Origin: Octopus sinensis
Lineage: Eukaryota
Assembly (NCBI RefSeq): GCF_006345805.1
Contig: NC_043017.1
Location: forward strand, 13,578,001-13,642,000
Reading direction: 5' to 3'
DNA: 64,000 nt
Below, one piece after another: positions 31,075-56,010 of the stretch. Position 1 is the stretch's first letter. Every line of letters begins with the position of its first letter. The notes below the pieces were generated by a model, which saw only the letters and a program-made list of their open reading frames with translations, did not search any database and was not told where the DNA came from. The translations under genes were made by a program, and so were the position numbers.

Positions 31075-31714
31075 CGTGCGTGTGTTTGGTTTGCTTGGTT
31101 GTGGCTAAAAGAAGGAACATCATAAAAATTAGTTAGAAACTGCCAGAATGGCCGAGACCATATCTGAATGGTAGTAGGTGTTACAAGCTTTGCTAGTTGA
31201 AAGAAGAATCGTTCTAAAAAAATTCACTCAATTCTGGTGCTTTACTGAACTCAAAAGGCCAAATATTTTGTTGCCTCCCTCATGAACAGAAATTCATTTT
31301 GGCAAAGAGGTCATCTCTATTTTCAGACTAGAGAATGACAGATGTGTACAAACACATAGCTGAGACCCTTCAGGTCCACTACACATGTGTACTGCTCTGT
31401 AAAAGATGTGTTCACCATTTATCATAAAATCTGAATGACATGACATCATTTGTCCCCAATTAATGAATTGTAAAATCCATCTTTGATAGAATATATTTTA
31501 TAATATATTATTATTAATATCAGGAAATCAATATTAGAAAATTCTTCAGAAAGATATATACGTGTGTAAAATAATTGTTGTATTAAAAATATAAATACGT
31601 ATAAAAATATATGTAAATAAGTATAAGTATAAATATATAATGTATATGACAGTTTAAAAGTTTTAAAGCATCTTACGATTCTCATTGAATATATTTCACT
31701 AAAGATTTCTCTTT

Positions 31715-35770: not shown

Positions 35771-38137
35771 ATACTTGAATAAAAATAAAAGGTGGGATGA
35801 TTACAGGCTGTTTGATCAGAGAATACCTGGGGCTAAACACCAGCAACAGTTTAAGATACCGTGGGTAAAGGAATGTTAAAATAATGATGATAATGATGAT
35901 GATGATGACAATGATGACTGACAATGAAGTTGATAATTAGAATGATGAGAATGATAATTATGATAATGATGATGCTGAGGTGGTGGTGATTCCACCCCCA
36001 CCCCCCATATCAACATTCCAACGTTTCTTCTTATAATTAGTTGGCAATATATACCTTAATAATTTGAATCTCAAACAACAACCAGTTTTACCGTTTGCTA
36101 TCATCCTGACCCAGACAACTGACAGAGAAAAAATATTATTATTAAACAAATCAATATTATTCAGAAGCTAGGGTAGACTTAATCCATTGCTCAGTTCGTC
36201 ACGGTCACTCCTACTGCTGCTGCTGCCGTCACCTGGTTTGTGGGTCCCACCAACGAGTCTAAAGTTCTGACAGTTTAGGGCAGTTTGCAACCGGGGTCCA
36301 TATGGCCCCTGAAGATCTATAAAAGATTTTGGGGGGTCCATGCAACAAAACAGTAAATTGGGGATCCTCAATAGTATTTTAAGGGCCCCTGAAAAAAGTG
36401 CTTTAGATGTATGTATTGGTATATATTGCAAGAAACAGCTGGGTTTCTTTCTCTAACATTTTACATAGTTCAACCTACACAAAATGTGTGAAAAACAAAA
36501 TAAGAATTTTTAAAGAAGTTTTTATAAAACTGGTCTTTAAACATTGGATGGTTATGGGGTCCAGAGTAAAGTAGAATTCAAAGGGGTCCATAGATAGAAA
36601 ATGGCTGAGAACCCTTAGTTTAGCGGGTGCTTCAATAAAATTTAATATAAAATTCACTTTATAGAAAACAATATTTATCATTTTAAAAACAATAAGTTAT
36701 GTTTTATATTTATCACATGGTTCCGGGTTCAGTCCCACTGCATGGCACCTTGAGCAAGTGTCTTCTATTATAGCCTTGGGCCAACCAAAGCCTTGTGAGT
36801 GGATTTGGTAGGTAGACAGAAATTGAAAGAAGCCCGTCATATATATGTATGTGTATATGTGTGTGTGTGTTTGTCCCCCTAACATCGCTTGACAACTGAT
36901 GCTGGCGTGTTTACATCCCTATAACTTAGCGGTTCGGCAAAAGAGACCGATAGAATAAGAACTAGGCTTACAAATAATAAGTCCTAGGGTCGATTTGCTT
37001 GACTAAAGGCGGTGCTCCAGCATAGCCACAGTCAAATGACGGAAACAAGTAAAGAGTTCCATGAATTGTGAAAAGTTATGTTCACCATTATGCCAAACTT
37101 ACTCAGAAAAGAGACAAAAACTGCTTTTGAGCTTGTTTCTTCAGATCTGCATATAGTTATTAATGGTGTGCTGTTTGAGTCATGATGGAGCATAGGAAAA
37201 GAAAAAGCTCGTGGCTGGGTGGCCACCTCATCTCTACCATCTCCTCTCTCCTCAACTGCAAGACACCTGTTCCTGTCTCTCTATCATATTTTAGCCTCTC
37301 TACTCTCAACACAAAGCCACTTCCATCAAAGCTGCGCCCCCCCCCACCCATTAAGTCAAAGGGTTTAGTGCAGGTGCCATGAAAAACTGTAAAGTGAGTG
37401 ATTGGTATTAGGAAGGGCATCCAGCCATAGAAAACTTGGCAAAGCAGACATTGGATCTTAACAGTCCTATAATTCTTCAGACCCTGTCAAGCTATCCAAC
37501 TCATGCTAGTATGGACAGATGATGATGATGATGATAATGATGATAAGTACAGGAATAGCCATATGGCTAAGAAGTTTGCTTGGCAACTATGCAATTTTGG
37601 GTTCAATCTGATTGCATGGCAACTTGGATAAGTGTCTTTTATTCTAACCTGAGGTTGAGCAGAATTTGGTAAATGGAAACTATGCAGAAGCCTGCGATCT
37701 GTGTGCATACATTTTCATGTTTGTATTTATGTTTATGCTAGTCTAAAAATGTATTTAAATAAAAGTCAATGTTGTGCATTTTTTGTCTTGCAACTTAGTG
37801 GCTCGGCAAATAGGTTTCGATAGAATATGAACCAGATTGAAATCTGTATTGGAGTTGATAAAATTGACTGGAACCCTTTCGAAAGTGGTGCCCCACAATG
37901 GATACAGTAGAATTGTTGGAACCTGGAAAAGATACAGAACCATACAAATACAGTTCTGAAGCATTTTCTATGAAGATAAGAGATTTGAAAAAAAAATGTG
38001 TGTGACATATTTGATAAGAAAGCATTTTTTGGGTGTGTGTGTGTGAAATATACATACACATATGTCTTTGTATGTATGCATTTATCTATATATATATATA
38101 TATATATATGCATATATATAAATATGCATATATATAC

Positions 38138-38168
<31 letters not shown>

Positions 38169-38305
38169 GATGCATATATATATATGCATATATATAAATA
38201 TGCATATATATATATGCATATATATAAATATGCATATATATATATATTTATATATATATAGATGCATATATATATATGCATATATATAAATATGCATATA
38301 TATAC

Positions 38306-38336
<31 letters not shown>

Positions 38337-38371
38337 GATGCATATATATATATGCATATATATAAATATGC

Positions 38372-38402
<31 letters not shown>

Positions 38403-38574
38403 AGGGTTTAGCAACGATTGCCTTACCACATACCGAATTTAGAAATAGCAGTCAAAGGTTTAGCTATTTCTTCTACTAAAAAGGGAGATCTCAGTAAAAA
38501 CAGCATTTGGAAGGCAGACACAACAGCTAAGAGAGAATGAATTGACTGCAATCTATCATACATCTTTTTAGTTA

Positions 38575-38687
38575 TCCACGGACGTACGTTTCGAAATCAA
38601 GTTTTAAGGAAAGCATAAGAATTAAATATTAATATTAAATAATAAATAATTCTATCTTACCGAAACTTCTTTTCTCTTCAGCGTAGA
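38575..38687 (-). ncRNA. Type I hammerhead ribozyme motif, second (inverted) copy
   Basis: Reverse-complement copy of the 39041-39152 motif with an intact core: TCTTCAG at 38675-81 and GACGTACGTTTC at 38581-92 on the plus strand. Predicted cleavage between 38581 and 38580. Confidence 0.8.
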
Positions 38688-39040
38688 ATACTATAATCAT
38701 AAATGATTATATATTGAATTTTGAGATACCAGAAGGCACCAACTCCACTCAGTATCAGAGCGAGCTAGAATCCGCAACTGGTATCACCGAATTCAATTTG
38801 TGAATGAAACGATTGTGTCAACAGCCCTTCCCACCCGCGTGTAGCCAAAACAAGATGCTGTGGTCATCTTACTGAGATAAAAATATGGTTATCCGTAATA
38901 ATGAAGGGTGAAATTAATTAATTTGGAAAATTATCAATTACACCAAGTAGTCTTCGGCATGTAAAAGCCTCATTCGAGGAAAATTTAAGTAATACTAAGC
39001 AATAAGGGTTTAGCAGCATAATCATTTATGATTATAGTAT

Positions 39041-39152
39041 TCTACGCTGAAGAGAAAAGAAGTTTCAGTAAGATAGAATTATTTATTATTTATATTTAAT
39101 ATTTAATTCTTATGCTTTCCTTAAACTTGATTTCGAAACGTACGTCCGTGGA
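39041..39152 (+). ncRNA. Type I hammerhead ribozyme motif (minimal palindromic stem III, long stem II)
   Basis: Stem I TCTACG (39041-46) pairs with CGTGGA (39147-52). Core CTGAAGA at 39047-53. Stem II closes with GAAA/TTTC and continues with AAGTTT/AAACTT and AGAATTA/TAATTCT. GAAA at 39135-38 is followed by C-GTAC-G-T-C; predicted GUC cleavage after 39146. Confidence 0.8.
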
Positions 39153-39815
39153 TAACTAAAAAAATGTATGATAGATTGCAGTCAATTCATTCTCTCTTAC
39201 TGTTTGTGTCTGCCTTCCAAATGCTGTTTTTACTGAGATCTCCCTTTTTAGTAGAAGAAATAGCTATAACCCTTTGACTGCTATTTCTAAATTCGGTATG
39301 TGGTAAGGCAACTCGTTGCTAACCCTTATTGCTTAGTATTACTTAAATTTTCCTCGAATGAGGCTTTTACATGCCGAAGACTACTTGGTGTAATTGATAT
39401 TTTTCCAAATTAATTAATTTCACCCTTCATTATTATATATATATATATATAGATGCATATATATATATGCATATATATAAATATGCATATATATACAGAC
39501 ATATACATATATGTCTATGTATGTATGCATATGTATATATATATGCATACATTTATGTATGCATCATCATCATCACGATGATGATGATGATGATGCATAC
39601 ATAAATGTATGCATATATATATACATATATGCATACATACATAGACATATATGTATATGTCTATGTGTACTTAACTGCATATAAATACAACACACATACA
39701 TACACAAGTATATGCCTATATATGTAAGCATATATATATATAATATATACATACATGTCCATGCACACATATACACACGTCTATGCACAGATATAATACA
39801 CACACACATCTATGC

Positions 39816-46628: not shown

Positions 46629-47751
46629 CGGTGATTCTTAACCAATTTTTGCCAATGGACCCCTTTTGCTTCCTATCTTACTCTTATTTCTTTATTGCCT
46701 ACAAGTGGTTAAACATAGAGGGGACAGACAAAAGTATTTAGTCGACTACATCGACCCCAGTGTGTAACTGGTACTTATTTAATCGACCCCGAAAGGATGA
46801 AAGGCAAAGTCGACCTCGGCAGAATTTGAACTCAGAACGTAACAGCAGACAAAATACCTATTTCTTTACTACCCACAAGGGGCTAAACATAGGGAGGACA
46901 AACAAGGACAGACAAATGGATTAAGTTGATTATATCAACCCCAGTGTGTAACTGATACTTATTTAATCGACCCCGAAAGGATGAAAGGCAAAGTCGACCT
47001 CGGCGGAATTTGAACTCAGAACGTAACGGCAGACGAAATACCGGCTAAGCATTTCGCCAGGTGTGCTAACGTTTCTGCCAGCTTACCACCTTCCTATCTT
47101 ACTCTACTAGACCTCCATAGCCAGTTGATGTATATAAAAAGAATTCTGTATTTATATAATTAAACATTATTAGGAATTGTCTCTATCTTCCACTTGCTTT
47201 CAGTCATGAGACAGCAGCCATGCTGGAGGTACTGCCTTGAAGAATTTTAAGTCAGATGAATCGACCCCAGTATTCTTTTCTTTTTCTATTGCTCTCTTTT
47301 ACTGAACTGCTAAGTTACAGGGACGTAAACAAACACTAGTTGTCAAGTGCTGGTAGGGGACAAACACATACGCAAAAACACACATACATATACATACATA
47401 TATATACACATATGATGGGCTTCTTTCAGTTTCTGCCAACCATATCCACTCACAAGACATTGGTCAGCCTGAGACATATAGTAGAAGACACTTGCCTTAG
47501 GTATCATACAAGGGATTGAACCCAAAACCATGTGGTTGGGAAGCAAGTTTCTTATCACACAAAAAATTATCACAAAGAAAATTAAAATACTTTGTGTATC
47601 GTAAAAGTATAAAAAATTTATTACACATAAATTTTGACAAAGAAACTTTATATGGACCCCCAAGAGCCATATGGACCCCCAAGAGCCATATGGACCCCCA
47701 AGAGCCATATGGACCCCCAAGAGCCATATGGACCCTGGTTGAGAATCACTG
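46629..47751. mobile_element. hAT-like MITE carrying nested SINEs
   Basis: TIRs cggtgattcttaacca and tggttgagaatcactg; imperfect 8-bp TSD gtttagtt/ctttagtc. A related copy in opposite orientation is at ~36280-36615. Confidence 0.6.
47651..47735. repeat. 19-bp tandem repeat, ~4.4 copies
   Basis: (tatggacccccaagagcca)n, subterminal in the hAT-like MITE. Confidence 0.95.
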
Positions 47752-54264: not shown

Positions 54265-54596
54265 ATGCTTCCCACTATAGATCACTTTTCCCTCAAACTC
54301 TAATACAATCAAGTTCAAGGGTCCATATATCCAGACATTAAGGACACAATAAACATCCCCTTTATCTCTCTCTCTTTCTCTCTACCATTCTTACAACCCT
54401 TTCTTCACACAAGCATCTTTCTGGTTTTCATTTCAAAATTCTTATATCATGTTCTTCAAATTAGTATTTCTTACCTATATATTTCTTAGTCATTCTTATT
54501 TGCTATTCCTCGAGTTAATATCTCTCTGATATTAAGCATCTCAAAGTCCGTATCTCTCAAGTATTATCTTAACCTTCCTTACTGCCTATTCTTAAC

Positions 54597-54804
54597 GTCA
54601 GCATATCTCTGCCATTTATCTTAACCAATCTTACAGCCTACTCTTCAAGTCAGCATATCTCTGCCATTTATCTTAACCAATCTTACAGCCTACTCTTCAA
54701 GTCAGCATATCTCTGCCATTTATCTTAACCAATCTTACAGCCTACTCTTCAAGTCAGCATATCTCTGACATTTATCTTAACCATTTTTATATCCTACTCT
54801 ACAA
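54597..54804. repeat. 52-bp minisatellite: three perfect copies plus one diverged copy
   Basis: gtcagcatatctctgccatttatcttaaccaatcttacagcctactcttcaa starts at 54597, 54649, 54701 and 54753. Confidence 0.95.
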
Positions 54805-56010
54805 GATAAACATATTTCTTTGAGGAATTTTCAGAAAAAGGTTTTTATATTCATGAACTGCAAAAACTAATCATTTACTTTCACTTTCACAAACTCATAG
54901 CATCCTCTGTCTCCCCCCCCCCCGCCTTTTCCTCATCATTGGTCATACTTCCCATTCCTTCTGTAACAAAAGATATGCGCTTACCTCTTAGAATTCTCTT
55001 CTCCTTAAACACAGCTAAAACCATGTGGCCTAGTGGTTATTGTATTGGGCTCTTGATCATGAGGTTACAGGTTCAATTCTCAAACTGACTGGTGTCTTAT
55101 GTCCTTGAGCAAGTCACAATGAAATTAGTGCTATTGTACAGGTCCACTGTTGGGACACTTACCAAACACCTGAAGGCAATGCTTGATGGTGCTTACACCT
55201 AAATGTTACAAGCTATCCTGAATATCTCCTATAAAAAGCATCCAACTCAACAAAGACTGTATGGCAATCTTTTTACAATCATCAGAGGGAAAGGCAGGTG
55301 TTTTGCAAGACACTGTTGGAGAACTCAAGAATTTATTAGTGGTACACTTCTAGGGAAACCTCCCCCACCCATCCAAGATAGTAAACACAAATTGGCAGAA
55401 CAGTAAAACTTTTCATTGGATCACTGAAGGTTTTGCTGACCTACTCAAATGCTATGAGAGATATAAGTTGGTTGAACACTTCCTATAAAAAAGATTTTAC
55501 TGACAATACTTCAGCTTTATCTTACATTTATTTCTGTTAAAATACACTTCTTTTGTTTCAATTAATTATGAAAATAATGAAGAATTTAGTAAAATAACTT
55601 CGTCATTATGGCCTTAGTATTTGGAACTTAAATTGATGTGAAATTTTGATGGAGGGTTTCACTTTAAAAGAGGAAGTTTGTGTTATAGAATAAAAGGTGG
55701 TATCAGGTGCTTTGGTATAAAAAAAAGGTTAAAGTCAGTCTAAAACAGTACACTGCTTTGATATCTACCCACCTGAGACATCCCTGGTTCTATAATATAA
55801 ACAACATGCTCTAAAGTGACCTAAATTGTCATGCTAATTTATGTTCTAAACACCAGCTTAATAACGACAAAATTACTTTACTAAGTTCTTCATTTTTTAC
55901 AAAATCAATTGAAACATAAGCAGTGTTTCAAAAGAAGGCTTTAAAATCAATGCAAACATTTAAAAGATTTGATAAACTTTTGCATTGAATTCGAAATCTT
56001 GTGTTTAATA

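What the first reader, a model, noticed from the sequence alone, without database searches (positions are those of the whole stretch)
39041..39152. Atypical type I hammerhead: palindromic 2-bp stem III combined with an ~80-nt AU-rich stem II
Seen: an intact CUGAAGA...GAAA core, a GUC triplet, a 6-bp stem I with one G-U pair, and stem III reduced to A-C-[GUAC]-G-U, where ACGUACGU is a perfect palindrome. Stem II is a long imperfect hairpin (GAAA/UUUC, AAGUUU/AAACUU, AGAAUUA/UAAUUCU). Known: Penelope-associated minimal hammerheads with palindromic stem III can cleave as dimers. Inference: cleavage may need two monomers, so it would depend on tandem transcripts or RNA concentration. The long stem II could make standard motif searches miss this variant.
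Basis: partly seen in the sequence, partly recalled or inferred. Interest (0 to 1): 0.8.

Follow-up and report, generated by a model that had tools for sequence, protein, structure and literature searches.

The report
Long-armed hammerhead of a jumping RNA
This is a hammerhead ribozyme motif with an unusually long side arm. It sits in a 607-base non-coding repeat with about 3,000 copies in this animal genome. The repeat likely cuts itself, likely in pairs, into RNA circles that a Penelope-type reverse transcriptase likely pastes into TA repeats from two fixed start points at once.

Summary
In detail: intact type I hammerhead at 39041-39152 with an 81-nt stem II and ACGUACGU stem III; a second copy lies on the minus strand (38575-38687). 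Both belong to one head-to-head insertion (38400-39435) in a TA tract of a young, non-coding 607-nt tandem unit, about 3,000 copies: a non-LTR retrozyme. The palindromic 2-bp stem III is the known norm for animal hammerheads, not atypical. The long stem II is a variant: it covaries, and it grew from about 60 to 69, 76 and 83 nt by apical ~7-nt duplications; a homologous sister family has 25 nt. Two results go beyond the finding. (1) Loop variants that spread keep self-complementarity (GUAC 2664, GUGC about 300, GCGC 26, GCAC 2), hinting at pairing between two molecules. (2) In 38 of 38 two-ended insertions one arm ends at or before unit position 204 and the other at or after 248 (34 exactly at sites A and B). 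A Hydra-type Penelope element here behaves alike, suggesting twin priming. Cleavage, circles, dimer need and the partner enzyme are untested. This window's copy is likely inert.

The parts
39041..39152 (+). Type I hammerhead motif: stem I 39041-46/39147-52, core 39047-53, stem II 39054-39134, GAAA 39135-38, predicted cleavage after C39146
   Evidence: covariation
39138..39145 (+). Palindromic stem/loop III ACGUACGU; predicted 8-bp self-duplex -9.8 kcal/mol versus +2.4 for the 2-bp hairpin
   Evidence: variants
39054..39134 (+). Long stem II (81 nt): 4 bp, 2x2 internal loop, further helices, AU-rich tip that grew by ~7-nt duplications
39035..39158 (+). Stem I extension: 2x2 internal loop (U.U, A.A) then UAGU/ACUA; the U.U is kept in 24 of 26 representatives
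39018..39435 (+). Right arm of the insertion: unit positions 477-607 then 1-292 (counted from the cleavage site); outer end is the RNA 3' end at site B
38400..39015 (-). Left arm of the insertion: unit positions 172-607 then 1-185; outer end is the RNA 3' end at site A
38575..38687 (-). Second intact hammerhead motif (82-nt stem II), core 38681-38675, predicted cleavage after 38581
39245..39431 (+). Structured region conserved with the short-stem sister family; holds site A (about 39329-39348) and leads to site B; inferred recognition element for the reverse transcriptase
38083..38402 (.). TA-rich microsatellite, left flank (target)
39434..39544 (.). TA-rich microsatellite, right flank (target)

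Best explanation
The motif is the hammerhead of a young, non-coding 607-nt tandem repeat (a non-LTR retrozyme) whose multimeric transcripts likely self-cleave, likely with two ribozymes pairing through the ACGUACGU palindrome, into monomers that are predicted to circularise and that a Penelope-type reverse transcriptase likely copies into (TA)n tracts. Shown: intact motif in about 3,000 copies, head-to-tail arrays, covarying stems I and II, no ORF, TA targets, head-to-head arms whose outer ends are RNA 3' ends at two fixed sites about 100 nt apart (A ~195, B ~298), one arm at each. Inferred: cleavage after C17 (about 85%); dimer pairing used in vivo (about 65%), strictly required (about 45%); circular template copied round and round to give arrays (about 70%); both strands of a cut in (TA)n prime reverse transcription on the same RNA, one at A and one at B (about 60%); the enzyme is a Hydra-clade element (about 50%). 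The long stem II is likely a tolerated extension beyond an internal loop that stands where the usual loop 2 would be. The window's own copy is likely a dead end: one hammerhead per strand, and a read-through transcript is predicted to bury it in a long inverted-repeat duplex.
For: Copies: 2,664 exact GUAC 18-mers plus 345 loop variants, reversed-pattern controls 0-3. Period 607 in an array of 12 hammerheads, units 99.7-100% alike. Longest ATG ORF 47 aa, no tRNA gene. Covariation on 22 copies: 7 of 29 pairs with double changes, 92.3% of cells paired, 0 of 500 shuffles reach the score. Circular monomer folds at z -5.7 against 40 shuffles, with stems I and II formed across the junction. Outer ends: 82 of 84 arm ends scored lie in TA tracts, 30 exactly at unit 195. 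A/B rule: 38 of 38 two-ended insertions among 75 loci (34 at the exact clusters), 12 of 13 in the sister family, 10 of 11 in a Hydra-type element. Opposite arm is the closest or tied-closest relative in 26 of 30. Simple fold-back of one cDNA cannot give 11 of 32 insertions, this one included. Loop III: variants that spread keep an 8-bp self-duplex. Region around A and B keeps its helices across both families, 4 pairs with double changes. Hydra-type element: 717-aa intact ORFs with RWK, DKT and CxCX5C, young copies, same TA targets and architecture.
Against: No cleavage, circle or transcript was shown. No DNA homology links the unit to any autonomous element tested; the Hydra hammerheads here have ACUCAGAGU, not ACGUACGU. 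Loop III changes rest on few events (about two A-to-G, at least one U-to-C), A-to-G could be editing bias, and the sister family shows no spread variant. Covariation counts cells, not events, and related copies can beat the shuffles. Central deletions in palindromes could mimic the fold-back exclusion; gene conversion or one dominant source locus could explain arm identity. In PMC11167929 the hammerhead was not needed for insertion in vitro, and 8 of 9 Xenopus dimers did not cleave (bioRxiv 2026.07.22.740005).
Confidence: 0.72

Rival explanations
1. Same retrozyme, but the hammerhead cleaves as a monomer: tertiary contacts between the internal loops of stems I and II stabilise the 2-bp stem III, and the palindrome is inherited habit.
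For: Single-copy coral and mussel retrozymes cleave co-transcriptionally at about 0.8 and 0.1 per min (PMC7229834). Forming the 2-bp stem costs only about 1 kcal/mol in the model. Unpaired columns I.7 and II.5 are conserved (24 and 25 of 26).
Against: The two central loop bases cannot pair within one molecule, yet GUGC (100 of the first 100 listed of 307) and GCGC (26) spread while GCAC (2) did not. Every family seen here has a self-complementary stem III.
Confidence: 0.35
2. The unit moves as a Penelope passenger through its structured 3' region, and the hammerhead is a slow or protein-dependent accessory; arrays come from multimeric linear transcripts rather than circles.
For: PAc hammerhead cleaved only with protein and was dispensable for insertion (PMC11167929). 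Insertion ends lie about 195-305 nt downstream of the cleavage site, not at it. Naiad elements thrive without canonical hammerheads (PMC8557442).
Against: Core, stems I and II and stem III are kept across subfamilies down to about 75-80% identity and across a 57%-identical sister family.
Confidence: 0.2
3. The head-to-head arms arise by fold-back self-priming of one cDNA or on an antisense template, as proposed for Penelope in PMC3846280, followed by central deletion.
For: 19 of 32 insertions fit fold-back from a B-primed cDNA; one has a perfect palindrome at the joint (L045); arms share private variants.
Against: 11 of 32 (and 5 of 12 in the sister family) fit neither direction without an extra deletion. 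The second end falls on site A although longer AU-rich stretches exist elsewhere in the unit.
Confidence: 0.25
4. A satellite amplified at the DNA level, with a chance hammerhead-like fold.
For: Tandem arrays of near-identical units.
Against: Dispersed over many chromosomes, strand-specific fixed 3' ends, variable 5' ends, covarying RNA structure, 0 of 200 chance hits.
Confidence: 0.03

Closest known systems
Metazoan non-LTR retrozymes (Cervera and de la Pena 2020, PMC7229834; Li, Clavereau and Pollet, bioRxiv 2026.07.22.740005)
   Same: Non-coding tandem repeats, one type I hammerhead per unit, GC under 50% (35% here), self-paired predicted circle that leaves the ribozyme free to fold, co-occurrence with Penelope-like elements.
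   Different: Unit 607 nt (170-400 nt in the first paper, though 51-972 bp in the preprint). Stem II 57-86 nt instead of about 4 bp plus a loop. Head-to-head arms, TA targets and two fixed ends are not described in the parts I read.
Penelope pLTR hammerheads, minimal and short-helix III variants (PMC4209133; Lunse et al. 2017, title only seen)
   Same: Short palindromic stem III, predicted dimer, longer-than-usual helix II (7-8 bp in minimal motifs).
   Different: 6-bp stem I with extension, 2 bp plus tetraloop rather than no helix III, helix II several times longer, not attached to an ORF.
Hydra-clade Penelope-like elements (Craig et al. 2021, PMC8557442) and PAc Poseidon (Frangieh et al. 2024, PMC11167929)
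   Same: (TA)n targets, partial tandems, inverted 5'-truncated copy, a tail at one end only, internal start of reverse transcription at two sites, both strands cut and extended.
   Different: No protein encoded; tail about 100 nt rather than 30-40; the strict one-arm-per-site pairing is counted here, whereas PAc showed no start-site difference between strands in vitro.

Membership tests
Type I hammerhead ribozyme | CUGANGA and GAAA core with NUH cleavage triplet | tested here: met
Type I hammerhead ribozyme | Three helices around the core, open helix I, supported by covariation | tested here: met
   stem III is invariant and weak in a monomer
Type I hammerhead ribozyme | Loop 1 to loop 2 tertiary contact | tested here: inconclusive
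   no terminal loop 2 near the core; conserved 2x2 internal loops in both stems may replace it
Type I hammerhead ribozyme | Match to an Rfam hammerhead model | tested here: not met
   the short-stem sister motif is missed too, so this reflects model coverage
Type I hammerhead ribozyme | Site-specific self-cleavage | not testable with these tools
   needs a bench assay
Non-LTR retrozyme | Tandem repeat unit of a few hundred nt with one type I hammerhead per unit | tested here: met
Non-LTR retrozyme | Non-coding, low GC | tested here: met
   longest ORF 47 aa, GC 0.349; no tRNA gene
Non-LTR retrozyme | Dispersed, mobile copies | tested here: met
   near-identical copies on many contigs
Non-LTR retrozyme | Expressed as linear and circular monomer RNA | tested here: inconclusive
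   only contigs of runs guessed to be RNA could be laid
Non-LTR retrozyme | Target-site duplication when present | tested here: inconclusive
   cannot be read inside TA tracts
Non-autonomous derivative of a Penelope-like element | Penelope insertion signature: partial tandems, inverted 5'-truncated copy, one-sided tail, microsatellite target | tested here: met
Non-autonomous derivative of a Penelope-like element | Sequence homology to the pLTR of an autonomous element | tested here: not met
   none found against 26 fetched Hydra-type loci and one other PLE 3' end; not a genome-wide test
Hydra clade (candidate driver, locus L173) | RWK, DKT, CxCX5C motifs, single ORF, under 3 kb, (TA)n target, hammerhead in pLTR | tested here: met
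   motifs read in the 717-aa ORF against PMC8557442 section 11; hammerhead with CCGAAGA core; no phylogeny run

The most novel reading that the evidence does not exclude
A Penelope-type enzyme dimer grips one retrozyme RNA at a conserved structured element, cuts both strands of a TA tract and primes both at once, one subunit always at site A and the other at site B, rolling round the circle to lay down two divergent arrays. This would explain Penelope inverted repeats and one-sided tails by one rule. The ribozyme that makes the circle works as an obligate pair, a fact recorded as compensatory change between two molecules (GUAC to GUGC to GCGC).
Probability: 0.42. Interest if true: 0.72.

Novelty: new variant of a known kind. 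Interest (0 to 1): 0.52.

Why it matters
The ribozyme class and the dimer idea are known. What this family adds is natural-variation evidence and a clean substrate. Thousands of young copies give countable insertion ends, and the one-arm-per-site rule makes a long-open question directly testable: how Penelope elements make inverted repeats and one-sided tails (PMC8557442 calls this unresolved). Loop III variants give ready natural mutants for the dimer question. More than 6,500 motif matches in this genome belong to types that Rfam missed in the examples tested, so animal hammerhead and circular-RNA counts are probably too low.

Tried and rejected
Expression: no RNA holder listed (20 of 22 rows hold the stretch, 9 studies, none on record as RNA). 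Four runs laid were contigs only: they cover the unit in runs labelled organisms A, B and C but show no start, end, strand or circle; not used as evidence. Partner search: no DNA similarity of the unit to 6 loci of the 717-aa Hydra family or 20 loci of other Hydra-type families; local-alignment scores against 6 terminal regions were within shuffles except one marginal case (L047 3' end, 1 of 100, not corrected for 6 tests). Six 10-kb loci of other long-stem motif families had no PLE coding match. L177 (sister unit beside a Hydra ORF) has a TA linker between them, so it is not accepted as a chimera. Sister-family loop variants: 6 and 6, background only. One search used a mis-registered structure (no signal) and was redone. 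The arm comparison was faulty and was redone. An explicit dimer fold was not obtained (scripts 61 and 63 crashed; only duplex energies). Rfam miRNA hits are TA-repeat noise. 35 of 58 window ORFs were scanned with Pfam: none passed a cutoff. Earlier scan findings: none. No protein complex job was sent.

Full report
OBSERVATION. Stem I is UCUACG/CGUGGA, the core CUGAAGA is at 39047-53, stem II spans 39054-39134 (81 nt), ACGUACGU is at 39138-45 and C17 at 39146. The named helices are in the MFE fold (z -2.43). A strict descriptor hits twice in the window and never in 200 simulated windows. The second hit is an inverted copy at 38575-38687. Rfam finds neither.

WHAT IT BELONGS TO. The window is G000:C21:13578001-13642000 of a 2.72-Gb genome; I did not establish the host taxon. 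The motif lies in a 607-nt unit repeated head to tail, for example 12 hammerheads in one array whose units are 99.7-100% alike. An 18-letter pattern finds 2,664 copies with the GUAC loop and 345 with other loops. The unit has no ORF over 47 aa and 35% GC. As a circle it folds far better than shuffles (z -5.7, 40 shuffles) with stems I and II formed across the junction. In the window the element is one insertion, 38400-39435, between TA tracts: a minus arm (unit 172-607, 1-185) and a plus arm (477-607, 1-292) joined head to head. Unit positions count from the cleavage site.

STRUCTURE IS CONSERVED. On 22 copies that I chose to span the subfamilies, 7 of 29 pairs show double changes, including the outer pair of stem I (U-A 11, C-G 11) and pairs 2 and 3 of stem II; 0 of 500 shuffles reach the covariation score, and slid controls pair at most 54.5% against 92.3%. 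These are few independent events among related copies. A tree built only on the 185 nt after the cleavage site (58 rows kept of 99 after merging near-identical ones) is a ladder: about 60-nt stems at the base, then 65-70, then 74-83, with the 25-nt family outside. The alignment shows the growth as ~7-nt duplications at the AU-rich tip. The same core and palindrome occur with 8-38 nt between the core halves 3,612 times, 39-69 nt 952 times and 70-100 nt 1,980 times (controls 2, 3, 5). Most listed short matches belong to a 555-560-nt sister repeat about 57% identical to the unit; several unrelated long-stem families also exist. So a long stem II is a recurring, tolerated feature here.

DIMER QUESTION. 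In a monomer the two stem III pairs have a predicted probability of 0.04; the palindrome gives an 8-bp self-duplex of -9.8 kcal/mol. The central loop bases can pair only between molecules. Among variants at the third loop base there are 307 copies, and all of the first 100 listed are GUGC. Among 38 variants at the second base, 26 are GCGC, 4 GAAC, 4 GGGC, 2 GCAC, 2 GGAC. GUGC and GCGC keep the full duplex (-8.8, -13.3); the rare ones break it. GUGC occurs in two subfamily backgrounds. Against: events are few, A-to-G may be an editing bias, the sister family has no spread variant, and published single-copy invertebrate retrozymes cleave well. I rate dimer use likely and dimer need open.

HOW IT INSERTS. 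Of 84 arm ends scored, 82 lie in TA tracts; they cluster at unit 185-205 (site A) and 290-310 (site B), each just after a CCCUU motif. Of 75 loci, 38 could be scored at both ends. In all 38 one end is at or before 204 and the other at or after 248; 34 fall in the two clusters, and none is A-A or B-B. Independent choice would give this at most once in about 3 x 10^11 (0.5^38, hand arithmetic). Of the other loci 35 were scored at one end (29 A, 6 B) and 2 at none. The loci were top hits and early pattern hits, some picked for having two arms, not a random sample. The sister family gives 12 of 13 and a Hydra-type element 10 of 11 (its exception, L177, involves a separate older copy). The two arms share variants: no other arm is closer in 26 of 30 (this window is one of the 4 exceptions, with 2 substitutions). 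Fold-back of one cDNA cannot give 11 of 32 insertions tested, this one included, unless the centre was later deleted. The stretch holding A and B keeps its helices across both families (98.1% paired, 4 pairs with double changes, 54 of 500 shuffles reach that pair count, 0 of 500 the score). I infer that both strands of a cut TA tract prime reverse transcription on one RNA, at A and at B, and that a circular or multimeric template yields the arrays.

DRIVER. The genome holds a young element with 717-aa ORFs (150 of 150 scored matches at 95% or more) bearing RWK, DKT and CxCX5C, the Hydra-clade marks. It has the same targets and two-armed form and a hammerhead with a CCGAAGA core. No DNA homology ties it, a second 728-aa Hydra-type family or another PLE 3' end to the unit. 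The partner is therefore a candidate only.

THIS COPY. Each arm has one hammerhead, so no monomer can be released and no tandem partner exists in cis. Folding the whole insertion pairs the motif fully with the inverted arm. It is likely an inert product of the family.

COMPARISON AND READING. PMC4209133 (parts 1-2 of 4 read) describes short palindromic helix III as usual for metazoan type I motifs. PMC7229834 (parts 2-4 of 6) defines animal retrozymes and proposes Penelope elements as drivers. bioRxiv 2026.07.22.740005 (parts 1-3 of 5) reports units of 51-972 bp. PMC11167929 (parts 1-2 of 4) shows internal starts at two sites and extension of both strands. PMC8557442 (passages and section 11) and PMC3846280 (passages) describe inverted copies and a tail at one end only. 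PMC3088659 and PMC6765202 were seen as passages. Lunse et al. 2017 is not held; I saw only its title. Searches showed no description of 60-85-nt stems II in retrozymes, of compensatory change in loop III, or of a counted A/B rule, judged from listings and the parts read. Supplements of these papers were not read and Repbase and Dfam were not available; any of them may already hold the family. 'Twin priming' is a term recalled from LINE-1 work.

VERDICT. A real hammerhead in a new retrozyme family: a new variant of a known kind. The interest lies in the family-level evidence on dimer pairing and on how Penelope-type insertions get their two arms. Interest 0.52.

Noticed in passing
L051-L080, e.g. 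L055 (G000:C1:397515-400559): Sister retrozyme family, 555-560-nt unit, 25-nt stem II with a U.U or A.A mismatch at its base, same palindrome and same A/B ends; makes up most of the listed part of 3,612 pattern matches.
   Followed up: partly
L173:3177-6024 minus; L174; L175: Young Hydra-type Penelope element with intact 717-aa ORFs and no Pfam hit; its hammerhead has a CCGAAGA core (U4C) and ACUCAGAGU stem III with a 1-nt loop that can hardly close in a monomer.
   Followed up: partly
L179-L185: Second Hydra-type family, 721-728-aa ORFs, with a small hammerhead upstream of the ORF that shares the ACUCAGAGU stem III.
   Followed up: partly
L214:1628-7678 (G000:C1:18218500-18227500): Short-family arms joined by a 3-letter microhomology directly to a long-family array of about nine units: template switch between the two retrozymes or a later deletion; both ends are A-type.
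   Followed up: partly
L082, L083, L085, L095, L096, L111, L121: At least four further families with ACGUACGU stem III and 55-78-nt stems II, unrelated to the unit, solitary in the loci fetched.
   Followed up: partly
run X2 laid on L031:7865-9078: 15 A-to-G against 3 T-to-C places, four of them absent from the deep run X15; could be A-to-I editing of sense RNA, but the organism labels differ and RNA is a guess.
   Followed up: no
L047:500-2991 minus: PLE-like RT and GIY-YIG frames with a CCGAAGA-core hammerhead and AGUACU palindrome in the 3' region.
   Followed up: no
L002, L104, L111: Minimal hammerheads with GAAACGUU (palindrome AACGUU), of the published minimal type by my reading.
   Followed up: no
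window 31155-31301: Weak match (E 1.6e-4, 49 aa) to the Hydra-type endonuclease region: an old fragment.
   Followed up: no
window 9050 minus: Loose hammerhead-like match under a relaxed scan, weak stem I; probably chance.
   Followed up: no
window 54564-54805 and 47650-47735: 52-nt (4.7 copies) and 19-nt (4.5 copies) minisatellites.
   Followed up: no
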